Origin: Phoronis australis
Lineage: Eukaryota; Animalia; Phoronida
DNA: 64,000 nucleotides
Assembly: GCA_002633005.1 (NCBI GenBank)
Contig: NMRA01000102.1
Span: 262,623-326,622, forward strand
Direction: 5' to 3'
Under the pieces are notes generated by a model. It worked only from the letters and a program-made list of their open reading frames with translations. It did no database searches and was not told the DNA's origin. Positions 6,199 through 63,400 of this stretch are shown here, one piece after another. The position numbers and the translations under genes were made by a program. Position 1 is the first letter of the stretch. Every line of letters starts with the position of its first letter.

Positions 6199-9100
6199 CG
6201 AGGGTCGTTCAATAAGTTTTCGGCCTCACCCAGAAAACAACGCGATAGCAACTAATTTTTACTTTTATTTTTCAATATAATCTCCCGTTACATCAATGCA
6301 TTTCTTCCATCTGTACTCCAGTTTTGCAATGCCTTCATAAAAGAAACTTTTGTCAAGCCCCTCAAAATACTCCTCCACTGCACTCATGACGTCATACTGG
6401 TGTTAACGTAGGTAGGCCTTCAAATGTGGAAACAAATAAAAATCAGATGAGGCCAGGTCTGGAGAATAGGAGGGGTGCAGAAGGATTTCAAAGTCACATC
6501 TAGTTGCTTCAGCCACCACAACTTGGACAGTGGACATGTACGTTGTCTTGATTGAAGCAACAGCACTCCATCTAGAAACTTCTCGCGTCTCTTTTCCTTG
6601 ATTGCTTTTTTGAGTTTTTCCAAAAGTGATCCATAGTATGCCTTCCCAGTAACAGTGTGTCCTTGTTGCAAGTAGTCGATCATCAGAATATCTTCGCTGT
6701 CCCAGTAACAGTGTGTCCTCGTTGCAAGTAGTCGATCATCAGAGTATCTTCGCTGTCCCAGTAACAGTATGTCCTCGTTGCAAGTAGTCGATCATCAGAA
6801 TATCTTCGCTGTCCCAGTAACAGTGTGTCCTTGTTGCAAGTAGTCCATCATCAGAATATCTTCGCTGTCCCAGTAACAGTGTGTCCTTGTTGCAAGTAGT
6901 CCATCATCAGAATATCTTCGCTGTCCCAGTAACAGTGTGTCCTTGTTGCAAGTAGTCCATCATCAGAATATCTTCGCTGTCCCAGTAACAGTGTGTCCTT
7001 GTTGCAAGTAGTCCATCATCAGAATATCTTCGCTGTCCCAGTAACAGTGTGTCCTTGTTGCAAGTAGTCCATCATCAGAATATCTTCGCTGTCCCAGTAA
7101 CAGTGTGTCCTTGTTGCAAGTAGTCCATCATCAGAATATCTTCGCTGTCCCAGTAACAGTGTGTCCTTGTTGCAAGTAGTCCATCATCAGAATATCTTCG
7201 CTGTCCCAGTAACAGTGTGTCCTTGTTGCAAGTAGTCCATCATCAGAATATCTTCGCTGTCCCAGTAACAGTGTGTCCTTGTTGCAAGTAGTCCATCATC
7301 AGAATATCTTCGCTGTCCCAGTAACAGTGTGTCCTTGTTGCAAGTAGTCCATCATCAGAATATCTTCGCTGTCCCAGTAACAGTGTGTCCTTGTTGCAAG
7401 TAGTCCATCATCAGAATATCTTCGCTGTCCCAGTAACAGTGTGTCCTTGTTGCAAGTAGTCCATCATCAGAATATCTTCGCTGTCCCAGTAACAGTGTGT
7501 CCTTGTTGCAAGTAGTCCATCATCAGAATATCTTCGCTGTCCCAGTAACAGTGTGTCCTTGTTGCAAGTAGTCCATCATCAGAATATCTTCGCTGTCCCA
7601 GTAACAGTGTGTCCTTGTTGCAAGTAGTCCATCATCAGAATATCTTCGCTGTCCCAGTAACAGTGTGTCCTTGTTGCAAGTAGTCCATCATCAGAATATC
7701 TTCGCTGTCCCAGTAACAGTGTGTCCTTGTTGCAAGTAGTCCATCATCAGAATATCTTCGCTGTCCCAGTAACAGTGTGTCCTTGTTGCAAGTAGTCCAT
7801 CATCAGAATATCTTCGCTGTCCCAGTAACAGTGTGTCCTTGTTGCAAGTAGTCCATCATCAGAATATCTTCGCTGTCCCAGTAACAGTGTGTCCTTGTTG
7901 CAAGTAGTCCATCATCAGAATATCTTCGCTGTCCCAGTAACAGTGTGTCCTTGTTGCAAGTAGTCCATCATCAGAATATCTTCGCTGTCCCAGTAACAGT
8001 GTGTCCTTGTTGCAAGTAGTCCATCATCAGAATATCTTCGCTGTCCCAGTAACAGTGTGTCCTTGTTGCAAGTAGTCCATCATCAGAATATCTTCGCTGT
8101 CCCAGTAACAGTGTGTCCTTGTTGCAAGTAGTCCATCATCAGAATATCTTCGCTGTCCCAGTAACAGTGTGTCCTTGTTGCAAGTAGTCCATCATCAGAA
8201 TATCTTCGCTGTCCCAGTAACAGTGTGTCCTTGTTGCAAGTAGTCCATCATCAGAATATCTTCGCTGTCCCAGTAACAGTGTGTCCTTGTTGCAAGTAGT
8301 CCATCATCAGAATATCTTCGCTGTCCCAGTAACAGTGTGTCCTTGTTGCAAGTAGTCCATCATCAGAATATCTTCGCTGTCCCAGTAACAGTGTGTCCTT
8401 GTTGCAAGTAGTCCATCATCAGAATATCTTCGCTGTCCCAGTAACAGTGTGTCCTTGTTGCAAGTAGTCCATCATCAGAATATCTTCGCTGTCCCAGTAA
8501 CAGTGTGTCCTTGTTGCAAGTAGTCCATCATCAGAATATCTTCGCTGTCCCAGTAACAGTGTGTCCTTGTTGCAAGTAGTCCATCATCAGAATATCTTCG
8601 CTGTCCCAGTAACAGTGTGTCCTTGTTGCAAGTAGTCCATCATCAGAATATCTTCGCTGTCCCAGTAACAGTGTGTCCTTGTTGCAAGTAGTCCATCATC
8701 AGAATATCTTCGCTGTCCCAGAACACAGAGGCCATAACTTTGCTTGCAGAAGCACCCAACTTCAAATTTCAACTTGGGGAACCTACGTGCTTCTATTGTT
8801 TACTTTGTTGTTTTGATTCCAAGTCAAAGTGGTGACCCATGTCTCATCCTGGGTTACAAGTTTTCTGGAAAATTTGGCTTGATCTGCTTGGAATCTTCTT
8901 GAAGTTCCTTTGAAATTTGCATTGTACTCATTTTCTGATCCTGAGTTAACATTGTTGGGACCCATCGTGCACTCAGCTTACTCACGCCCAAATCTTCACT
9001 CAAACTTTTAGAGACGGACCCATTGCTGATGCGAACAGTGTTTGCCAAATGTTGAATAGTCATTTGCCTGTCTTTCATAACCATTGCTTGAATTTTCTGC

Positions 9101-27941: not shown

Positions 27942-28576
27942 CTTCTATTTTCTCATTGTGGCACTTTGGGATCAATCATTGCTGGCACCAGAATGTCTGG
28001 CGTGAACCCAAGGTTGGTCATCATGCTGTGTACTTAAACCTGTCTCGTTATATTCTAGATTCATTTTGTTGACAAGAGAGGGAACCATCTTCGGGTGAAT
28101 CTTATTTATGTGTTTAAACTGCAATTGCTATGGAAACTCATTCACATAAATTGTATTATTGATCATAGGTTACAATAGCTATGTTTGTGTCCTGGAGTTG
28201 CCAGTAGTCTGCCTTTGGAAGCCATAGTGTCAATGATAAGTTCAGGTGCTTGAATCATATAGCTAAAACTGCAACTTCAGAATGCGAGTTCATAAAGTGA
28301 CAATCTGAAAATGACAAGACAGATATTTTCATGTTCCCCATCACCTTTAGGTTTTAATAAGAAGTTCAATCAAATGCTGAATTTTCTAGGTTTGGCAGAA
28401 AATTGAAAAGTTGTGTTCATTCTTTAGTCAAACAGCAAGACTTGTTCAAGTGAAAATGAGGGAGCAATCAACATGTCTACTTGTTGAGTGCCTTCCACAC
28501 TATGAGTTAGTCTAGGATAACCCCTGTAAAGAGTTGTCACCAGGTTTAGTTGTAGTGTTGACATTGTTTGCGCTGG

Positions 28577-29054
28577 GACAACTTGACACACGTGTGACAA
28601 CTTGACACACGTGTGACAACTTGACACACGTGTGACAACTTGACACACGTGTGACAACTTGACAAATGTGTGACAACTTGACACACGAGTGACAACTTGT
28701 CACACGTGTGACAACTTGGCACACGAGTGTCAACTTGGCACACGTGTGACAACTTGACACACGTGTGACAACTTGACACACGTGTGACAACTTGACACAC
28801 GTGTGACAACTTGACACACGTGTGACAACTTGACACACGTGTGACAACTTGACACACGTGTGACAACTTGACACACGTGTGACAACTTGACAAACGTGTG
28901 ACAACTTGACAAACGTGTGACAACTTGACACACGAGTGACAACTTGTCACACGTGTGACAACTTGGCACACGAGTGACAACTTGGCACACGTGTGACAAC
29001 TTGGCACACGTGTGACAACTTGACACGTGTGACAACTTGTACAGGTGACAACTT
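28577..29054. repeat. 19-bp minisatellite, about 25 copies
   Basis: gacaacttgacacacgtgt; explains the repetitive ORFs in all three minus frames. Confidence 0.97.
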
Positions 29055-30925
29055 AAAGTATCCAACCTGATCCGGTAGTGTTGGTGTAAATGTTCAGACA
29101 ATGAGCAAGTAGTTACCAGCTCTTCGCTGGCTCAGTCACGGTTATGCACGTAGTGTTGCCTGATTATTTTGGTGCCTGATTATTTTGGTGCCGTCTTTGC
29201 CATATTGTGTGGTGTACACACCTCATTCAACTGGGACTAGTTACTCCAAGCTAAGTTAATCAAGGGAAGTAGTAATGTTGACACAACTTTGGAAAGACCC
29301 TCCCTCCCTTTTCAGTAGCTTTCAAGTAGGTAATATCCTGTTAAAGATTTTTGATTAACTTGTGATCATTAAATAGAGTTGTTGCCAATTATTTTGTGAT
29401 AATGTAACTCCATCAACACCAAATAGTGAAAAGTTCAGCTGTTAGGTTTTGTAATGAATTGATGTTGTATCCAGTGAAAGGGACATTTCCTTCCCACTAA
29501 ATCTCAATTTAGAAACCACATAGGATTGGCCAACCCTTACTTACAATAATGGACTACTCGGTCTGTTATTGAGTTGGTAGTGACCTCTCAGTTTATTTAT
29601 ATATGGTAGAAATAAACTGCTGTTGTGGAAGGAATATGGATAAAAGTGGTTTGTTAGAGTTAATTGACTTATACCATTATTTTCATGTTTGGTCATCAGT
29701 AGGATGGAAATGTTACCATAGTAAAAGTTTGTTATCAATTATTATTGTTGGTCATAATTCGATAATGGATATCCATGACAAGTGTGTGTATTTATTGTAT
29801 TCTAAACTAGGTTGTTGAAAGTGTCGTGTTATTTAAAAAGTAGGATACAACAAGATTGTATGTGTGTATGTATTTACGCATTGGAATTTGGTCAAGTCCT
29901 CTTGTGGTTCTTTTTTCTATTTGTTTCCAACAAAGTATTCCCAGAACGATTGGACGACAGAGAGCTTGTATAAACTAACTCTTAGTCTCCGTTGTCGCAT
30001 GGTTGTGATGTGCGCTTGTGCTTTATATATCTGTATTCATCACTGTTTGAATTGAGAAGGTAATAATTGTTATCAGAAATGAAATAAACGACTTGTTGTA
30101 GCGAGACCTTTGTTTCAGAACGCATCTCACAGAGGTCGCTGAACGTGGATGAATCGGATGCATCGCCATTCGCAGTTCGGTTCCTCACTATGATGCATTC
30201 GTCTTTTCACAACTAGCTGTATCTCCTTCTTCATATCCGGCTGTCGATTGTCGTATCTCACAACTAGCTGCATCTATTCTTATAATTCATACCCGACAGT
30301 CGATTATCTTATCTCAACTCTCGACCCGCAGCCCACAACCCCATCGAACCACTGGCAGCCTACACATGCTCGACTCGATGTCATGAAAGAACAAGCGCTA
30401 ACTTGCAGAACCAACAAGTCGGACCGTGAGCTCGACTGGCTTTTCCTTGTTTTTTGCAATTAAGAGAGTCGATTCGGCAAGTTTGAAAGCTAGAAACAGA
30501 AAAAAAACGAGACCAAATCGAATCAAAGACTTACCGACGTAATGTCGGTCCGCGGGCAGAGTGTAATCGTCTCGGGTGGTATTTCCGCTTTTTGCAATCC
30601 AGAGAGTCGATTCGGCAAGTTTGGAAGCCAAAAATAGAAAAAAACAACGCAATCAAATCAAAGACCTACCACCGTTACAAATGTCGTTCCCGCCCGGCAA
30701 AGCGTAATCGCCTCGTCTGCTTTTCAGTGGTCGATGGCAGATTCACTAGCTGTTTCGGGGACTCGCTGAGTTCGAGGAACCCACGAATATGTAATTTCTT
30801 CTCAACGTTACATGAATTATATTGTAACAGAGTAGAAAACAGAAAGCACTGATATAATGAAAATGTGAAAATACCGGTACGTCTATTCACGTTAACGTAT
30901 TCTCTCCTTAGGTTTCGTCCAACAT

Positions 30926-37944: not shown

Positions 37945-38275
37945 CTAACATCTAAGGGTTGGAGCCTGTGGTTGTGTGATTGGGGGAGGAGAAAATGAAA
38001 ACACCATTTTCCCGCGCTAACTGAATGGCGTCAAGGTTTTTTGTGTGGGATGCATGTCCGTGGAGTAGAAGACGGACTTTATTTTCAACTGACGCATTCA
38101 CTGATCGGATAAAATGACGAAGCCATTCAATGAAAACTATAGACTCAATCCATCCTGAATTAGTGCAGGCAAAAATTGTACCAGTGGGTGCATCAACTTT
38201 CAAGGAATCACACAGTCTTTTCCACTTGAAGATGAGCATCCGAGGGATGTATTGGCCAATGGCAGAATGACAGTG
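37945..38275 (-). pseudogene. pogo/Tigger-type DDE transposase fragment
   Basis: ..SGWIESIVFIEWLRHF..KVRLLLHGHASH..AIQLARENGVFIFSSPNHTT resembles the DDE_1 LLxDGHxSH / PxHTT motifs; catalytic D replaced by H, frameshifted. Confidence 0.85.
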
Positions 38276-39421
38276 GACACCAGTAGTATTTGTTNCTGGT
38301 ACGGAACCGATAACTCTCCCCTACTTGACCTCAGAATTATAGAAAATTATCCGATAAGATCGCACAAAGGTAGAAAGTACAATGCCAAAAATAATTTCGA
38401 TTTTAAATACAAAGATTTGACTCCGGCCATGATAAAGGCGAACCCGAACTCATGGTTCTAGCTCGTTCACACACTGACACAGCCAGGGCAATTATCCTAC
38501 CACCCTTCCGAAGTGTGGCTCCACTTGAACTCATCGCGGCGAGACCCCACGAGGAGTAAGCTTCTTTGCGCTTTCTAATGGACTTAACTTTCGTGATAAA
38601 CTTAAAAAAATACGATAATTGCTCTGCTTCACACACAAAGAACTTAATTAGTTTAGCATTGGTTTGGCGTTGGTGGTTCTTGTACACTACTTGGGTACCA
38701 CGGAACGGGTAGTGTTTGTGACTAGTGAGCACAACTGAGGCGTTAATGTGAGACAGCTCGCACACTATGGCACGCTGGAGCCGGACGGATTTACTGAGGC
38801 ATAAAGCTTGAACAAGTGGGAGTAGTAATTAGAATCAGAGTGGAAAAATTTAGAAAGTAGTAGAACGACACGCGACGGCCTCATCCAGTGGATCGTAATA
38901 GTTTCAAAGTTTATTTTATATTCCAGTTAGGCTACTTTAGTGACACTGAACATTGCTTGGTTTCTGAACCGAACCGTACGTAAGTAATGAAACAGACCAA
39001 TGAGCTATCCTGGTATAGCTCATTGAACAGACCAACATGACCGTGTTTTTAAAATTGAAAAAACTATAGCCGAGATTAGCAAATAGATTTTCTTCAGCAT
39101 CACGGCTTAGCAACGAGTATTAATTCAGTTATGAATCGATTATGACGGGCTAGTCACAGTCTGGCTTACTCGCTTAATAGATGGAAGATCATTAATTTAA
39201 GTCCGGCCGCTCGGCGAGTCCAGTTGAGTGAACAAAGGAACAGTCAGCACGACCGGCCAATATGGTCGTGGCTTATCATACGTTAAATCAAACTTTACAA
39301 CAACCAAAAAAGTTGTTTTGCATGCTTAAATTGCATGTTGTATCTATTGTGTCCATATAAATGAAAAATATTGGACTTCATACTTTTGGCTCAACGTTGG
39401 CTATAGATAGTAGTTACCATC

Positions 39422-52719: not shown

Positions 52720-53294
52720 CTAGAAATAACAAAAAGTAAAATTCAGTGGTTAATGTTCTTCAGTTGAATCGAAACCGATCCTATCAACAAGGAACAAGGG
52801 CAATTTCTGGGGGATGAAATGTACCCTCAAAGATTAGCCATAAAAAATGAAGTTTTCAACAATTTTGTGAACAAATGAAAGTTGTAGTAGTGCAAAGACA
52901 AAAGTAATGACTCTTTCACATATCCTAGATTTTGTTTTTAAGTCAAAGTCTCTATATTGACTCTATAGCTTCAACAAAATAACATATGAGTGAGTTTTTA
53001 CCAATGCACTTCATGATATTCTTAGTTTCAACTCGAGGCAATTCCTACATCACTTATTTCTAAGGTAAGTTTTTAAGTGAAGTGGTGTCTGCTCAGATTG
53101 GTGTTCAAGTGCTGAGACAAAGTCAAAGATGACTATGTATGAATCACAAATAGTGCATATTATTGTACATATCTTTCTCTTTTGCTTCAATGACCCCACT
53201 CTCTGAAATAACATGTTTCACTAAATGAAAGTGCACCTACATATTTGCTACATGCCTACTAATGGTACTATGGTATTTTAGTCCCAGGGTTTAC

Positions 53295-53521
53295 CTGTAT
53301 AAGGTTCTCTTGTCCATTAATTCGTCATTACCAATGCCCTGTGCGATGTGGTAGTCATCCTTTAGTCCTTTGATTCTGCCCCAGTACTTCACTTTTTTGA
53401 ACTTGTAGTTTGCCTTGAGAATCGCTAGAGATGTTTGTAACGCAGCTTTTTGCTCCACAGACCGAAGAATACCAGAGCTTCCGACATAATCAACATTTAA
53501 ATTAAAACTTTCTCCGTCCAT
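53295..53521 (-). CDS. RSPH9: Radial spoke head protein 9, exon 1
   Basis: MDGESFNLNVDYVGSSGILRSVEQKAALQTSLAILK..YWGRIKGLKDDYHIAQG..KRTLY; 227 nt, AG|gtaa. Confidence 0.95.
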
Positions 53522-54103
53522 AATCGCTTTCAAAACGAATTTTACAAGACTTGTGATATTTTACCGACTTCCACTCTCAGTCTCCAACCAAATGTTGTTT
53601 GTGAAAAATCACCAAGGCAATAAACGCATGCGCATTGATTTCTTTTCGATATCCGGCAATAGCTTTATCCAAAACGTTTCAAAAATGTAGCATAATACAA
53701 TAAAAGGTAATTATTCTAAATTTAAAGTCTTTGAAAACTTTTAAAATGGTTTATATGATATAACATAAAATTATATGTTGTTATTTTGTATTTTTCCAAA
53801 GCATAATCCTTTGATTTACGGAAGCGGCTTCCGGGAGATGTTTCATGGCGAAAGCGGGGTTGGTGCTACATATTTGTATTAATTAGTGGGTGAGAAGTTG
53901 GTGTTGTGGCCTGTCTTTCATCGTTTATTTTCAAACAAGAGCACCTGTTGTATTTATCTGATTATTACTGCCTCAGAACTTAATCAGAACTCATTGACTG
54001 TACTCAGTGGATAACCGGCTAATTCGATACTTTGATGCGACCACAGAGGGCGCCCTCGTCTACAGCTTACCAACGTATCCTGGATTAGTACGTGTACCGT
54101 ACC
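53522..54103. promoter_or_regulatory. Bidirectional promoter region between RSPH9 and MRPL33/NUDT22
   Basis: Head-to-head start codons with 582 bp between them; X-box-like atcaccaaggcaat (53608-21), NRF1-like cgcatgcgca (53625-34), ETS-like ggaag/cttccgg (53820-34). Confidence 0.6.
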
Positions 54104-54298
54104 ATGTCTAAGGGTGGGAAAATTGTTATGGTTCTCTTAGAAAGTTTGGCAGGAACTGGCCATAAAGTTGTGAAACTGCGCCCTAAACTAGCTGATAAAA
54201 TGGAAATTGTTCGTTTTGATCCATGGGTCCAAGAAAGCGTTGTTTATAGAGAGGTAAAGAAAATAAGGACTATGAGAAACATTGGTAAACGTTATTGA
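54104..54298 (+). CDS. MRPL33: Mitochondrial ribosomal protein L33 (bL33m), intronless CDS, 64 aa
   Basis: accATG; MSKGGKIVMVLLESLAGTGHKVVKLRPKLADKMEIVRFDPWVQESVVYREVKKIRTM.. carries the SxAGTG and (Y/F)DPxV...xE signatures of the zinc-less L33 type. Confidence 0.92.
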   Translation: MSKGGKIVMVLLESLAGTGHKVVKLRPKLADKMEIVRFDPWVQESVVYREVKKIRTMRNIGKRY

Positions 54299-54402
54299 CA
54301 GACCAGAACTTTAGGTACTAATCGAACAGTACAAAGAAATAGTTTGGGATTTGCTTGAAAGACACGGACATCTATAGGAAACTTTGTTTTGTGATATACA
54401 CT

Positions 54403-54876
54403 ATGTGTTCCAATTACAACAATGAATTTGAAAACCCTTTGGGAAAATTGATCGGAAAAGAAGATGTCTGTGTTAGTGTCAGTGAACAGTTCAATCGCAA
54501 GCAAATACGTGGAAATTTGGAAAGTGAAATTGAGATGGTGTGGCAAAACAGATTGATGGACAACCCTCGTCTGTTTAATGGAACCAAATTTCGATTGCAT
54601 TCAGTGAGGAAAAGCGAAAGCAATAAGCTTAATCTGTGCATTGGTGTAACTTGTTACAAAGACTTCTTGGGCACAAACTACTCACCGCAAGCAAAGATGC
54701 TGCAAGAACTTGGTATTGAGCAATTCCAAAATTCTCAAGCCTTCTTGTCTGAAGCTATCGGTGTAGGTGCCTTGTTGTTAACATCTGATGACCGAGTGGT
54801 GATAATCAAGCGAAGCAAGCATGTTGCTGAGGATGCTGGGAAATATGATCGACCTGGAGGTCATGCAGAACCGAGC
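54403..54876 (+). CDS. NUDT22: Nudix hydrolase 22 (UDP-glucose pyrophosphatase-like), first large exon
   Basis: W.NRLMDNPRLFNGTKFRLHS..GVTCYKDFLGTN..AIGVGALLLTSD..KRSKHVAEDAGKYDRPGGHAEPS|gtaagt; true start uncertain (frame open from 54343). Confidence 0.92.
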
Positions 54877-55997
54877 GTAAGTTGAAACAGGGAAAAGTGG
54901 AGAGAGATGATAATCCACTCTAGCTAAGTGTGACCAGTAAAGGGAAACTTGCTCACAGTAACTCGCATCCTTGTGCACTTACAGATTTTAATGTGCAAAT
55001 ATGGTAAAATTCAACCTATCTGAAATGACAAATGCACAAATTTTGAATCATCTAACGGTCAAGCTTTGTCCAAGTTATCGCGCCAATTTCAGAAAAAATA
55101 GCTGCCAAAATTGTGCACTTTTCCATTTTTCATAGGTTTCTAATCTTAACAGTGGATGTTTCCAATGGTCTGTTGATAGTTACCATGGTTACTTACAGAA
55201 CTTGAATATGGCTGAGCACTATTTTGGTATAGTTACCATTATACCATATTGTTAGGTACAGAACTTGAATATGGTTAAGCACTATTTTGGTATATCATTT
55301 ATGAAAAAAAGAGAAAATTAAATTTCACCTGTCTACCGTAATGTGTCCTAAATTTGTGAGATTTTATCATTAGCAAAGATCCACCTTTGCTAAAGTTTGA
55401 ATTAGGTACATGTCTGTATCCGTGGTTATTTTGGGAAAAAACAATTGGCTTTACACGTACATTCCCTGGTAGTTACTTACCGGTTTTTTTTTCACTGAAT
55501 AATGAACTTCAGAGTGGATTGCAAAATTTGGGCCCCCTTTAAGTGGCTATTGCCCAGTTTCTGACCAATCTGATGCACATCACATTAGGTCTTGATGCAC
55601 TATCTTGAGTTCTGCCATATTGTAACGTAGTCTGGCCTTTGGATTTTGAAGTCAAGAGCCATGTTATTTGTTGTGTTCAATGACTTTAGTAGTTGGAAAG
55701 ACCAGATATGGGGGGTTTGAATTGACTCCCAGCAATTGTTGCAAAAAATGACATGATTTGTAATTGTTTTCCATGAACAGGATACAAATTTAGCTTTTTC
55801 ATATGTATTTTCAAATATCACCCTGTTTTGAATTCTCATTGTGGTTGGTGTTTCTAATCACTGTGAACCAAAAGCCAGGAAACTGTTCTGAGACCTAGAA
55901 AAACTGACATCAGAGTGAGCAACGGTGAACAAAATGAATTGGTGTTTGATTAATTTACTTTGCATGATGTTCAACTCACATGTAATGTCATTTACAG

Positions 55998-56203
55998 GTA
56001 CTAGTCGGAGATCAGCCTCTTGACCAAATAAACGTTGAACAGTTGTCACCGACAGCAGTAAGGGATGAGCTGTTTAACTCAATAGTTTGTGAAGTTCGGG
56101 ATGAAGTGAACATCCCAGAGACAGTAGTGTCTGATCCCCTGCTACTGGGTGTCTACCGTAACCCTGCAAGTGCTGGCAGACCTGGTCTGGAGTTCCTTGT
56201 CCG
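55998..56203 (+). CDS. NUDT22: NUDT22 exon
   Basis: ttacag|GTA...CG|gtgaga, 206 nt; ..VRDELFNSIVCEVRDEVNIP..LLLGVYRNPASAGRPGLEFLV. Confidence 0.93.
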
Positions 56204-56610
56204 GTGAGAAATTAGTCACATTTTGCATTCGTTCAGTACATCTTCACCTATTTTGCATGCTTATAGGTCAGTTATTGTAATTACCATATAAAAAATGATA
56301 TTGCACTTTTCAATTGAGTGTAGCATAGAAGTTAGGTATGTTAGTGTTTGTGAAATGAAAATTACAAATTTGGAAGTTATGTGAAAAAAGCTGAAAAGTT
56401 ATGGAAAGGGTGTGGTGAGGAGACCCAAGCCCCTTGTTGTTCACACTGTCAATATAAGACTTCACTCAAATGTGATTATATAAGTATTAGTTGTTATGGG
56501 TTAGATATTTTACATTGCGAGTCTTCCTTGTTTGACGTTAAGATGAAAACTGACTTGTGTAATTTTTATTTAAAACAGAATTGGCTTGTTTTGCCTGGTG
56601 TCCTTCAATA

Positions 56611-60002: not shown

Positions 60003-60193
60003 ACTTTGGTTGAGGAGTGTCCCCTCTGAGTACCCAACCTGCTCTTTGGTTGAGGAGTGTCCCCCCTGAATACCCAATCTGCTTTTTAGTTGAGTGTCCC
60101 CCTGAATACCCATCCTGCTCTTTGGTTGAGGAGTGTCCCCCCTGAATACCCAATCTGCTTTTTAGTTGAGTGTCCCCCTGAATACCCAACCTG
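60003..60193. repeat. Compound minisatellite of about 34-40 bp
   Basis: ctttggttgaggagtgtccccc..gaatacccaa(t/c)ctgct units. Confidence 0.85.
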
Positions 60194-60246: not shown

Positions 60247-60427
60247 GTGTAGCCTGACATCTCAGCAAGTGTTTGAGCTCTACAGCAAAGGAACTCAAGT
60301 GGAGGCAGATGAATCAACGGCCATCAAATTCTTGAGTCTCTTGGAGTTGAAAAGTGACTTTCAATCAGATAAAATGACTAACAGCTTGAAGTCTGTGCTG
60401 GAGTACTACATGACATTAAAGGCTTAA
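60247..60427 (+). CDS. NUDT22: NUDT22 last exon
   Basis: tttcag|G TGT...TAA; CSLTSQQVFELYSKGTQVEADESTAIKFL..YYMTLKA*; phase 2 fits; total 861 nt = 286 aa from ATG 54403. Confidence 0.9.
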
Positions 60428-63400
60428 TAAAGTCTGTGCTGGAATACTACATGACATTAAAGGCTTTACAGGTTGTTGTTTATGGTGTTTTTGGTTAGTC
60501 TGGGGCATCATATTGCTAGACACCATGTATATTGCTAGACAACATGTTCTTGAGGTATTTGTATAGGTAGTATTATCATGGACAGGAATGCTTAACTTGG
60601 AATATAAACCTTTCTTGGACAGAGGTTACTTTGGAAATTCAAAAACTAAATGTGAAGTTTGGATTTAAACTGACATATGTGCACTAGTGCATCATGTTTT
60701 GGGAAATTGTTTTTATTCTCTAGTAGTGTTGCCATAAATTTTTGAAGTAATGTTGTCATAAATAAGAGCAGTTTGAAAAAAAATGGCCATATTGGCACTT
60801 GTGAGTACTAAACACCTGTACATAGCATACCCTGTTTCCAATAGAGTTTTTAGTCACAAATGCAGAGGTTCATGGCGTAACTTTATTTGTTCTTTAAAAC
60901 TAACTAGGGCACAGCGCCATTATAGGCAAACTAGGGCACAGCGCCATTATAGGCAAACTCATACATGCATACGTCAATGTGTAGATCAGACTTTTACTTC
61001 ATGTGCAGGCCCATAGGAAGGTAAAATTACTCCTACCTGGAATTTCCGTAGATAAGCCCTGGCCATGGGCATGTATTTGGAAAATGGGGCGTGTAAACCG
61101 AAAGCCACTATTTTACTTACAACTGCGTTTTTAAATTTTTTGTTAAATGCATAGTTCACCAATGCCTTGTTAGTTTTTATAAATGATAAATTCTCCATAA
61201 AACTGAATTTGTGACAAAAAGTTGATGCTGAGTGGGCTTTTAGGAGGAAAATTTCCAAATAAATGTCCCACTGTATGGACACTTGACACCAGAAGTTGTA
61301 ACACCAAATAAACACCCATGAGCATGTATTTGGCATAATTTTCTGAAGATACACCCATGGGCGTTTCATCAGGTGGTCTTATCTATGGAAAACCCCTTTA
61401 GCAGTATAGAGACATTCAACTTCGTCATTATCATAATTAAAATGGAATTGTGTCAGCAAATGCACATTCTGCACCATTTTAATGGGAAATCCATAAACAA
61501 GCCTTACAATTAAAAACTCCACAAAAATGGTAAAGCATATAAATTTATTACAGGACAACCAAGTTAAAACTGAGTGAGAGCGCTGATTGTATTACCGAAA
61601 TTGTAGCTTTGCTTTCCTGAATGGGAATTGGCTCCTTTATATACAAGTTCTATTTGCTATGCTCTGTTGTTGTTACCCCAGTAGAGTTGGCCTTGCTGGT
61701 TAGATTAGCAATGCAGTATACACTCTGGATCTATTAAACACTGCGAAATGCATTTACTAAAAGTTTTATTCATGACGAATCCAAATTTGTTTCACAGCAT
61801 GTTACCAAACGCTGTTGAGGCCCAAGTTTTATCCCGAGAGACACCGAGATGGATAGATTTCAAGACTCGCACATTTACCGAAACGAAACTTTCTTCTGCT
61901 TGTGTTAGAATATGAAATTCCGTCGCGAAATCACGGAATTTGTTAGAAAACTTTCAAACTGAACTAAAATTTTCATGCCACGATATCACGTTCAGATTCA
62001 GACGGAATTTAGGAAAACCTGGCTTGTAATCGAATTCAGCGCTTCCGAAAGGGTTAGACAGCCATCCGGGATAACTTTTTTACGAAGCGTCAATTTTCAT
62101 TTGTCTTAAAAGCTTATGTGCGTTCTTTGTGGTAAAGAGGCATTATCATCGTGGATTAAGGACCAATTTGCCCTGAGGGATAGTGTACCCGGTAATGCAT
62201 CCGATAGTTATAACAAGCAAATGCAATTTTGATTCAGTCTTGGGCGGATTTTCCTCCTCGACCGTAAGCAATAAGTTTATGCCCCATTTTAGACGATTGC
62301 GATAATCTAGAAAGCAAATCGTTGATCCAGCGGCTTTGTGTCAAACATTCGTTGCTGGCCAGAAAAAATGTTCCTCGTGTTTTTTGTCCAGTATTTCGCA
62401 CAGATCAAATTTCTCTCAACAAATGTTGAAACATTTCTAAATTACAGGCTAGGCAAGCCAAACTGATACTTTTACTTTAACTATATATTTTGTAAGTTCA
62501 TTAGAGTCAAGTGTCATGCATTTCTTACGATGTCGGTAACTTTTTTATTTATTTTTTTTAACAAGTGTCTATTCAAATTGGAGAAGAAACATATTTTGTT
62601 GAAAGTGAGATTCTTTTCTATTTTGGCGCTGCTTCTTCTCATCTTATGGTGCATTTCTAATTTGTTTATAAAAAGCTACAAAACAAGGAAATTAACCTTT
62701 TAGTTTGTACCAATAAAATAATTAAATTCAAAATTCAAGCCTGATTTTTTAAGAGTTTCTGAGTTTTTTTAACCCTTTTTACGACCACTTGGTACTTTTT
62801 CTGAAAAATAGCAAATAAAAGTACTGGGAAGTATGTGACTTTTTGTCAGCAACAACACATCATTGCTTCATGCTATAGAAAAAATAACTATATAGCAGAA
62901 AGAAGAAAGAATAACATACAAGAAAAATTAGTTCGGGTGGATTTATTGATTTTTATGTCCTCCCATTTTAGCCTACAAAAATGTCATTTTCACTGCTTAT
63001 TATTAAGGCCATTTTTACGCATTTTTATCGCTCTCCCAAATCTATATCGGATTTTCAGTTTTTCAGTTTTGCTCGTGCAAAAATAAAAATCTATTATAGG
63101 ATTACAGAACTCAAAAAAGTCAATTTTAATGTACTGCTGAGTTAATAATACAACTCCCATCACCATTTCATACTTCGGAGAAGCAGGTTATATTCTTATT
63201 AAGGGTGTCCATTCCCCCTTGCTTGGTCACTGTTTTTGAACACCGTAATGGACGAAGAATCCCACACATTGCCTGCAGTGCATGCTGCTCCATTTTTAGA
63301 CCTCCTGGATAGTCCCTGTATATGCGCTTGAAAAGACCTCAAAAACTATTAGCAAAGTTCATACTAAAACTAATCAAGATCTTCGAGATCACAAGTGAAA

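What the first reader, a model, noticed from the sequence alone, without database searches (positions are those of the whole stretch)
53820..54876. Intronless MRPL33 immediately upstream of NUDT22: candidate bicistronic or nested gene unit
Seen: a complete 64-aa L33 ORF (54104-54298) ends 104 nt before the first in-frame ATG of NUDT22 (54403) on the same strand. The spacer has no AATAAA, no ATG and little room for a promoter, and the only evident promoter is the 582 bp shared with RSPH9. Known: vertebrate MRPL33 has introns, and animal bicistronic mRNAs often carry a small mitochondrial protein as the upstream ORF (e.g. the MIEF1 uORF). Inference: one pre-mRNA yields both a mitoribosomal protein and a Nudix hydrolase, by reinitiation or leaky scanning, operon-like processing, or alternative splicing. 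MRPL33 may have retroposed into the NUDT22 leader.
Basis: partly seen in the sequence, partly recalled or inferred. Interest (0 to 1): 0.82.

Follow-up and report, generated by a model that had tools for sequence, protein, structure and literature searches.

The report
Mitoribosomal gene inside NUDT22's leader
In this invertebrate an intronless gene for mitochondrial ribosomal protein L33 lies in the transcribed leader of the enzyme gene NUDT22, at a spot that holds no L33 in other animals examined, so it was likely copied in from an mRNA and one message likely makes both proteins, a new example of a known kind of two-protein mRNA.

Summary
Observation confirmed. A 64-codon bL33m ORF (54104-54298) ends 104 nt before the first AUG of a three-exon NUDT22. 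Three stranded RNA-seq runs cover leader, L33, spacer and NUDT22 exon 1 without a break and at equal pooled depth (100/93/104/99). No joint skips L33, and the spacer shows no poly(A) or spliced-leader loose end. A second allele differs in L33 only at synonymous sites (3 of 3). RSPH9 and NUDT22 are head-to-head without L33 in 4 of 78 related loci, and none of the 78 carries L33, so L33 is the incomer. It likely lacks an intron that many relatives have. Best reading: a retro-inserted L33 on one bicistronic mRNA, with NUDT22 likely made at low level by reinitiation; four AUGs inside L33 argue against plain leaky scanning. Single-molecule continuity and translation are not shown. The kind is known (Drosophila mRpL53-CG33155; human STREMI-SLC35A4); I found no report of this pair. 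Extra lead: the spacer encodes, in frame, a match to NUDT22's conserved N-terminal motif (0.4% of controls), so NUDT22 may start at UUG/CUG.

The parts
53294..53521 (-). RSPH9 coding exon 1; its transcript 5' ends pile up at 53580-53586
   Evidence: Pfam Radial_spoke E 1e-4; RNA reads on the opposite strand with a splice loose end at 53295; 58-63% identical to exon 1 in L002, L003, L005, L071
53587..53822 (.). untranscribed gap between the two divergent transcripts: likely bidirectional promoter
   Evidence: zero depth at 53674-53779 in all 4 runs; promoter role inferred
53823..54103 (+). 5' leader of the L33-NUDT22 transcript (coverage ramps up over about 53823-53950), with AUGs at 53838, 53845 and 54035
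54035..54088 (+). 17-codon uORF in weak context; peptide unconstrained (3 of 3 allele differences change residues)
54104..54298 (+). intronless MRPL33 (bL33m) ORF, 64 aa, four internal AUGs (54128, 54200, 54223, 54272)
   Evidence: 3 of 3 allele differences synonymous
54299..54402 (+). 104-nt AUG-free intercistronic spacer, fully transcribed
54343..54402 (+). stop-free 20 codons in frame with NUDT22 that match the family's N-terminal motif; near-cognate codon TTG at 54355 (CTG in run X1)
   Evidence: translation not shown
54403..54876 (+). NUDT22 coding exon 1, counted from the first AUG
   Evidence: joint 54876>55998, GT..AG, in 4 of 4 runs
55998..56203 (+). NUDT22 exon 2
60247..60427 (+). 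NUDT22 last coding exon to TAA (286 aa in all); AATAAA at 60426
   Evidence: loose ends at 56206 continue into this exon in 4 of 4 runs; spliced product scores 367 bits on a homologue profile

Best explanation
An intronless, expressed MRPL33 ORF lies in the transcribed 5' leader of NUDT22, likely placed there by retro-insertion, so that one mRNA from the RSPH9-shared promoter likely yields L33 as its main product and NUDT22 at a lower level, likely by reinitiation across the AUG-free spacer. Shown: the ORFs, continuous stranded coverage at even depth, NUDT22 splicing, constraint on both ORFs, and the L33-free RSPH9/NUDT22 pair in other animals. Inferred: that single molecules carry both ORFs (about 0.85); that L33 came via a reverse-transcribed mRNA rather than a DNA move (about 0.65); that it is the working, perhaps only, MRPL33; and the route to NUDT22 (reinitiation, alone or after the short internal ORFs, about 0.55). 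In this model scanning ribosomes pass the weak 17-codon uORF, start at L33 (A at -3) and terminate at 54298. A minority of 40S subunits keep scanning, reload initiator tRNA and start NUDT22.
For: Coverage: every bin from 53823 to 54888 is covered on one strand in X2, X3 and X4, and the lowest bin over L33 and spacer has depth 10.8. Pooled depth is 99.6 (leader), 92.8 (L33), 103.9 (spacer) and 98.7 (NUDT22 exon 1). No joint lies within 53700-54900, and the only loose ends are the exon 1-2 splice and one 5' piece in X4. One X1 contig of 1731 nt runs 53891-54876 into exons 2 and 3. Selection: L33 3 of 3 differences synonymous (P 0.01-0.02); 0 non-synonymous against about 5 expected from the flanks (P about 0.006); NUDT22 6 of 7 synonymous. 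Polarity: RSPH9 lies head-to-head with NUDT22 in L002, L003 and L005 (200-216 nt between ATGs) and in L071 (748 nt; groups with Mya, 96/87), and an L33 profile finds nothing in 78 of 78 loci. Intron: 55 of 180 L33 hits lose similarity right after the DP motif and 39 of those 55 continue with Gly, as a phase-1 intron read through would give; the window is uninterrupted there. No divergent L33 reads at 80% cut-off. Precedent for retroposition-born bicistronic mRNAs: PMC13303939 (passages).
Against: Short reads and a contig cannot prove one molecule. Per-run depth is uneven: X3 dips to 11-16 over the second half of L33 against about 28 on either side, and X2 falls from 38 to 26. No poly(A) remnant is visible, and the only flanking direct repeat is 8 nt, about chance level. 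In Mytilus and Mactra, MRPL33 and NUDT22 sit on contigs of identical length, i.e. likely the same chromosome, which a local DNA rearrangement explains as well or better. RSPH9-NUDT22 pairing is seen in only 4 of 78 loci (absent from L001 with 5.8 kb upstream). The intron is inferred from unnamed ORF calls, not from DNA; 41 of 180 hits were unparsed. Reinitiation after 64 codons is expected to be inefficient (PMC11892635, passage). In Drosophila only 45 of 159 dicistronic loci are exclusively dicistronic (PMC4528330).
Confidence: 0.65

Rival explanations
1. The long mRNA is in practice an L33 message with a long spliced 3' part, and NUDT22 protein comes mostly from a minor shorter transcript that starts inside L33 or the spacer (as for the partner of Drosophila mRpL53).
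For: CG33155, downstream of mRpL53, has a monocistronic form from an alternative promoter (PMC4528330 File S1 rows 168-169). Depth rises from L33 into NUDT22 in X3 and X4. Six AUGs between 54035 and 54272 precede NUDT22.
Against: No sustained step in pooled depth (93 over L33, 99 over NUDT22 exon 1). No pile-up of molecule ends in L33 or the spacer. X2 falls rather than rises.
Confidence: 0.2
2. Same bicistronic mRNA, but L33 arrived by a DNA-level move within the chromosome after losing its intron(s) in place; no retro-insertion. This rival concerns origin only and overlaps with the best reading on expression.
For: No poly(A) or convincing target-site repeat.
Against: The incomer brought little flanking DNA (881 nt between the RSPH9 and NUDT22 ATGs, against 200-748 nt elsewhere), no separate promoter gap and no 3' end of its own, as an mRNA copy would.
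Confidence: 0.3
3. Two separate, overlapping transcripts (L33 mRNA ending inside NUDT22 exon 1, NUDT22 mRNA starting inside L33) whose depths happen to sum to a flat profile.
For: Cannot be excluded with 151-nt reads; weak hexamer variants lie at 54334 and 54421.
Against: No canonical poly(A) signal in 54104-54900. No poly(A) loose ends or end pile-ups in 3 of 3 raw-read runs. It needs matched abundance in three samples.
Confidence: 0.08
4. Operon-like pre-mRNA resolved by spliced-leader trans-splicing, or alternative cis-splicing that removes L33.
For: A foreign 5' piece is joined at 53974 in 9 reads of X4, beside an acceptor-like site.
Against: That piece has median length 72 nt, occurs in 1 of 3 raw-read runs and joins upstream of L33. 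No loose end or joint at any spacer AG, and the spacer acceptors are pyrimidine-poor (0.25-0.5).
Confidence: 0.03
5. The L33 ORF is a transcribed processed pseudogene or a bacterial-type L33 passenger.
For: Intronless; Pfam score below the curated cut-off.
Against: Intact ORF, only synonymous allele differences; nearest named relatives are animal bL33m at 61-66% with the same short N-terminus.
Confidence: 0.02

Closest known systems
Drosophila mRpL53-CG33155 dicistronic locus (PMC4528330, File S1 rows 168-169)
   Same: A mitoribosomal protein gene found only on a dicistronic transcript with an unrelated partner; the 104-nt spacer here lies within the -34 to 319 nt range given for exclusively polycistronic loci.
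   Different: Different genes; 8-nt spacer there; the partner there has a monocistronic form. In a search of 12 supplementary files (file 1 not searched) mRpL33/CG3712 did not appear.
Human bicistronic transcripts STREMI-SLC35A4, MIURF-MIEF1, PYURF-PIGY, ASDURF-ASNSD1 and the 'gene symbiosis' model (PMC13303939; abstract and passages)
   Same: Small protein upstream (mitochondrial for STREMI; for MIURF and PYURF by recall), larger unrelated protein downstream, both conserved; origin by retroposition into an active locus; in SLC35A4 the downstream ORF is repressed by the upstream one.
   Different: In SLC35A4 the downstream CDS is the retroposed part. Here the upstream ORF is the intronless incomer, it is a core mitoribosomal subunit, and the empty ancestral state is visible in other animals. 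'MRPL' and 'MRPS' occur 0 times in that paper's main text; its datasets were not read.
Conserved-peptide uORFs of Drosophila such as Tim9b-CG12788 (PMC2276209; passages)
   Same: Known small mitochondrial proteins encoded upstream of an unrelated ORF on one mRNA.
   Different: Those pairs are conserved across dipterans; this pair was found in no other locus examined.
Green-algal bicistronic loci translated by leaky scanning (PMC11892635; passages)
   Same: Two ORFs on one nuclear mRNA with an AUG-poor spacer.
   Different: They have short leaders, a weak first start and AUG depletion in ORF 1. Here the leader is about 250 nt, the L33 start has A at -3 and L33 holds four internal AUGs (3 internal Met against a mean of 1.65 in 20 homologues).

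Membership tests
bL33m / MRPL33 | sequence similarity to animal mitochondrial L33 above bacterial L33 | tested here: met
   top PDB hits bL33m; nearest named proteins Babylonia 66%, Bulinus 61%, Ridgeia 61%; Pfam PF00471 20.7 bits, under the 25-bit cut-off
NUDT22 | full-length match to the NUDT22 family and fold | tested here: met
   5LF9 E 6e-28; spliced product 367 bits on a homologue profile; exon-1 model aligns to human NUDT22 at Z 14.5, rmsd 4.2, 151 residues
animal bicistronic mRNA | two non-overlapping ORFs on one mature mRNA molecule | tested here: inconclusive
   unbroken stranded short-read coverage and one contig across both ORFs point that way; no long reads were available
animal bicistronic mRNA | no dominant monocistronic isoform (no internal 3' end, start or skipping splice) | tested here: met
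   no joints, end pile-ups or poly(A) loose ends in L33 or the spacer in 3 of 3 raw-read runs, pooled depth flat; minor isoforms not excluded at depth 10-60
animal bicistronic mRNA | both ORFs under purifying selection | tested here: met
   L33 3 of 3 and NUDT22 6 of 7 allele differences synonymous; one allele pair only
animal bicistronic mRNA | both ORFs translated from that mRNA | not testable with these tools
   needs ribosome profiling or reporters
retrocopy / retrogene | loss of introns present in orthologues | tested here: met
   55 of 180 L33 hits break off after the DP motif, 39 of 55 with Gly next; window uninterrupted; intron inferred from protein fragments, DNA not seen
retrocopy / retrogene | new genomic position relative to the ancestral gene order | tested here: met
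   RSPH9-NUDT22 head-to-head without L33 in 4 loci; L33 in 0 of 78 loci
retrocopy / retrogene | poly(A) remnant and target-site duplication | tested here: inconclusive
   no poly(A) run seen in the spacer; one 8-nt direct repeat at 53974 and 54304, about chance level; such marks decay in old copies
retrocopy / retrogene | intron-bearing parent gene elsewhere in the genome (or its loss) | not testable with these tools
   no whole genome held; no divergent L33 reads at 80% cut-off
spliced-leader operon | short constant leader trans-spliced to the downstream gene | tested here: not met
   no loose end in the spacer or at the NUDT22 start in 4 of 4 runs
leaky-scanning bicistron (green-algal type) | weak first start and AUG depletion in ORF 1 | tested here: not met
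   L33 start has A at -3; four internal AUGs, two with purine at -3 and G at +4
non-AUG-initiated N-terminal extension | conserved coding signal upstream of the first AUG, and initiation at a near-cognate codon | tested here: inconclusive
   motif score 7.0 bits against -7.2 for the AUG register, 0.4% of 3000 controls; whole-protein HMM scores equal; AlphaFold placed neither segment confidently

The most novel reading that the evidence does not exclude
The animal's only MRPL33 retroposed into the leader of NUDT22 behind an old RSPH9/NUDT22 bidirectional promoter, and the host enzyme is now started not at AUG 54403 but at a UUG (CUG in another allele) 56 nt after the L33 stop. The 'spacer' would then be partly coding and supply the family's conserved N-terminal motif: a natural bicistronic mRNA whose second cistron uses a non-AUG start behind a 64-codon essential ORF.
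Probability: 0.2. Interest if true: 0.65.

Novelty: new member of a known kind. Interest (0 to 1): 0.43.

Why it matters
It is a polarised example of how animal bicistronic mRNAs can arise. The empty ancestral locus (RSPH9 head-to-head with NUDT22) survives in other animals, so here the incomer can be named: the upstream ORF, a core mitoribosomal protein, which took the first place on its host's mRNA. That extends the retroposition ('gene symbiosis') model, argued from vertebrate cases, to an invertebrate and to the upstream position. It also gives a compact system for asking how a second ORF is reached behind a long, AUG-rich first ORF. In practice, annotation would likely drop this L33 as 5' UTR. 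It does not overturn anything: dicistronic mitoribosomal genes are on record in Drosophila.

Tried and rejected
No whole genome is held, so copy number of MRPL33 could not be tested. The word-index search with L33 alone found nothing; the HMMER search did (110 hits). One search listed no holder on record as RNA; that blank is not used as evidence, and the lays of X2-X4 are. Conserved adjacency: contig lengths first suggested L33 next to NUDT22 in Mytilus and Mactra, but accession numbers are about 490-2050 apart, and Batillaria and Plakobranchus carry them on contigs of different length. This is indirect, as no DNA of those genomes was seen. L33 profile on 78 NUDT22 loci: best hit E 1.1; 45 of 78 hold 400 nt or more upstream, 26 hold 1000 nt or more, and many are redundant or non-animal. 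Target-site repeat search: one 8-mer, chance level. AUG-free spacer as a sign of selection: not significant. NUDT22 tree (33 rows, 21 of the 24 hits plus 11 loci): the window's animal is in no starred group, so its phylum is open. N-terminal extension: whole-protein HMM gives no gain (367.0 vs 366.6 bits). The AlphaFold model of extension plus exon 1 leaves residues 1-30 under pLDDT 50, and its AUG-register residues take the place of human residue 5 onward (the alignment was in that register). The same half-domain of homologue L001 has pLDDT 78-89 at its N-terminus against 36-68 for the window's AUG register, so the AUG-started end fits poorly but the extension is not placed: no verdict. The spacer's allele differences fall 6 in 57 nt before 54356 and 0 in 47 after (P 0.024, boundary chosen after seeing the data). 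The X4 5' piece is not in the window at up to 3 mismatches. Literature: MRPL33+NUDT22 0 papers; dicistronic+mRpL33 1 unrelated paper (passages); RSPH9+NUDT22 2 expression studies with one mention each (listing only); some searches gave the precedents cited or nothing relevant. PMC4528329 was the wrong companion paper. PMC9082881 passages added only that MIEF1, MKKS, ASNSD1 and SLC35A4 uORF products are functional. Earlier findings of the scan: no match by words, place or sequence.

Full report
1. What is in the sequence. The window is animal DNA; no whole genome is held for it. Its NUDT22 has molluscs, a nemertean and a brachiopod among the named hits, but a 33-row tree does not place it in any supported group. 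RSPH9 exon 1 starts at 53521 on the minus strand. A 64-codon ORF lies at 54104-54298, followed by a 104-nt spacer without ATG, AATAAA or ATTAAA and the first NUDT22 AUG at 54403. The small ORF is animal mitochondrial L33: the best solved structures are bL33m and the nearest named proteins are gastropod and annelid bL33m at 61-66%, with the same short N-terminus. NUDT22 is complete in three exons (54403-54876, 55998-56203, 60247-60427; 286 aa). The AUG-free spacer alone is not unusual (P about 0.12).

2. Expression. Four runs were laid: X1 as contigs (RNA is the tool's guess) and X2-X4 as stranded raw reads, of which about 18-19% were read. RSPH9 and the L33-NUDT22 unit read on opposite strands with an empty gap between them. 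RSPH9 ends pile up at 53580-53586, and plus-strand coverage starts near 53823. From there to the first donor at 54876 every bin is covered in 3 of 3 raw-read runs. Pooled depth is 99.6 over the leader, 92.8 over L33, 103.9 over the spacer and 98.7 over NUDT22 exon 1 (from the table). Single runs are less even: X3 dips to 11-16 over the second half of L33, X2 falls from 38 to 26, X4 rises from 40 to 45-51. The narrow lay lists no joint and five loose-end rows: four are the exon 1-2 splice, and one is a foreign 5' piece at 53974 in X4. No poly(A) or short constant leader appears in the spacer. One X1 contig of 1731 nt runs from 53891 through both ORFs into exons 2 and 3. This is what a single bicistronic mRNA would give, but short reads and a contig do not prove one molecule, and a minor NUDT22-only form cannot be excluded at this depth.

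3. Function of the L33 copy. The X1 contig differs from the window by about 2%. In L33, 3 of 3 differences are synonymous (P 0.01-0.02). At the rate of the flanks (11 in 317 nt) about 5 replacement changes would be expected and none occurs (P about 0.006). NUDT22 has 6 of 7 synonymous; the 17-codon uORF has 3 of 3 replacements. This rests on one allele pair. At an 80% cut-off no divergent reads were laid on L33, so no similar second copy is expressed in these samples; a much older parent would be invisible.

4. Origin. A scan of metagenome contigs gave 78 NUDT22 loci (the best 80 of 114 confirmed stretches). An L33 profile hit the window at E 4e-32 and none of the 78 loci (best E 1.1); 45 of 78 hold at least 400 nt upstream, and many are redundant or non-animal. 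Four loci carry RSPH9 exon 1 head-to-head with NUDT22: L002, L003 and L005 with 200-216 nt between the ATGs, and L071 with 748 nt, against 881 nt here. L071 groups with Mya (96/87); the other three fall in a separate supported clade of unnamed sequences. The pair is absent from others, such as L001. So RSPH9-NUDT22 is an old pair and L33 is the incomer. Of 180 L33 hits, 84 are complete, 41 were unparsed and 55 lose similarity right after the DP motif, 39 of them with Gly next. I read these as genomic ORF calls running into a phase-1 intron that the window lacks; this is inference from protein fragments. Against retroposition: no poly(A) remnant and only a chance-level 8-nt flanking repeat. Also, in Mytilus and Mactra the two genes lie on contigs of identical length but with accessions about 490-2050 apart, so a DNA move within a chromosome is a real rival.

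5. How it likely works. The promoter between 53587 and 53822 likely fires both ways. On the plus-strand mRNA, ribosomes would mostly pass the weak uORF and start at L33 (A at -3). To reach NUDT22 by leaky scanning alone they would have to skip six AUGs from 54035 on, two of them with purine at -3 and G at +4. L33 is not Met-poor (3 internal against a mean of 1.65 in 20 homologues), unlike the first ORFs of leaky-scanning bicistrons in green algae (PMC11892635, passages). Reinitiation across the AUG-free spacer, after L33 or after the 8-codon internal ORFs, is therefore my preferred route. It would be inefficient, as that paper notes for long first ORFs, making NUDT22 the minor product. None of this is tested.

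6. A lead on the NUDT22 start. Most homologues begin with an acidic-hydrophobic motif (consensus MDPDVEIMF). The residues after AUG 54403 match it badly (-7.2 bits), while the 20 in-frame codons upstream, inside the spacer, match at 7.0 bits with a two-residue gap. That is within the range of the 36 homologue N-termini (0.6-27.7), and 0.4% of 3000 stop-free control 20-mers reach it. I noticed the match by eye before testing it. A TTG at 54355 (CTG in X1) opens the motif, and no allele difference falls between it and the AUG. Against it: the start context is weak, a 13-residue insertion is needed, whole-protein scores do not improve, and AlphaFold placed neither segment with confidence. A homologue's N-terminus in the same set-up was confident. 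The segment may be a live non-AUG extension or a relic.

7. Comparison with what is known. FlyBase lists 159 dicistronic loci, 45 exclusively so, with spacers of -34 to 319 nt in that class (PMC4528330, passages). Its File S1 has mRpL53 as dicistronic-only with the unrelated CG33155, which also has its own promoter. Mitochondrial proteins are enriched in Drosophila uORF pairs (PMC2276209, abstract and passages). PMC13303939 (abstract and passages; datasets not read) lists 14 human bicistronic transcripts and proposes origin by retroposition next to an active gene. So the kind, the mitochondrial bias and the origin model are all in print. My searches found no paper on the MRPL33-NUDT22 pair; the library lacks most subscription papers. 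That human MRPL33 has introns is recalled, not checked. One earlier AI note on this genome also calls the animal an invertebrate with mollusc- and worm-like relatives; it is not used as support.

8. Verdict. Real, expressed and very likely bicistronic; a new member of a known kind. Its merits are the clear polarity (empty ancestral locus, upstream incomer, core mitoribosomal subunit) and the possible non-AUG start of the second cistron. Interest 0.43; 0.65 if the non-AUG start holds (probability about 0.2).

Noticed in passing
window 53521(-) and 54403(+); L002:4702/4919, L003:5740/5944, L005:668/869, L071:1446/2195: RSPH9 and NUDT22 form a head-to-head pair kept in at least two animal lineages (a Mya-like bivalve and an unnamed clade) besides this one; I found no paper on it.
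   Followed up: yes
window 53974: In run X4 only, 9 reads join a foreign 5' piece (median 72 nt, not found in the window) beside the most acceptor-like site of the leader: an alternative first exon from outside the window or an allele-specific insertion.
   Followed up: partly
window 54343-54402: In-frame codons upstream of the NUDT22 AUG match the family's conserved N-terminal motif better than the AUG-started residues do; possible non-AUG start or relic of an older N-terminus.
   Followed up: partly
window 53250-53600: RSPH9 depth is about 8-fold lower in X4 than in X2 and X3, while the L33-NUDT22 transcript is not lower, so the two sides of the shared promoter vary separately.
   Followed up: no
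window 54077-54079: The X1 allele gains a new upstream ATG inside the 17-codon uORF and a 9-nt insertion behind 54014: the leader tolerates new AUGs.
   Followed up: partly
window 60395-60468: A tandem duplication of about 37 nt spans the NUDT22 stop codon (seen); the C-terminal helix lacks the Trp that is common in homologues.
   Followed up: no
L024-L057 (e.g. L037, L048) and L071: Many related loci have an extra NUDT22 intron near codon 112-115 that the window and L001-L009 lack.
   Followed up: no
named genomes: MRPL33 and NUDT22 appear to share a chromosome in Mytilus and Mactra without being neighbours.
   Followed up: partly
window 55255-55370: A short intronic repeat attracts divergent reads from both strands.
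   Followed up: no
window 6400-6800, 28500-29130, 37950-38320, 60010-60180: Degenerate transposase-like frames (mariner-like at about 6.4-6.8 kb, DDE-like at about 38 kb; labels recalled, not tested) and tandem repeats.
   Followed up: no
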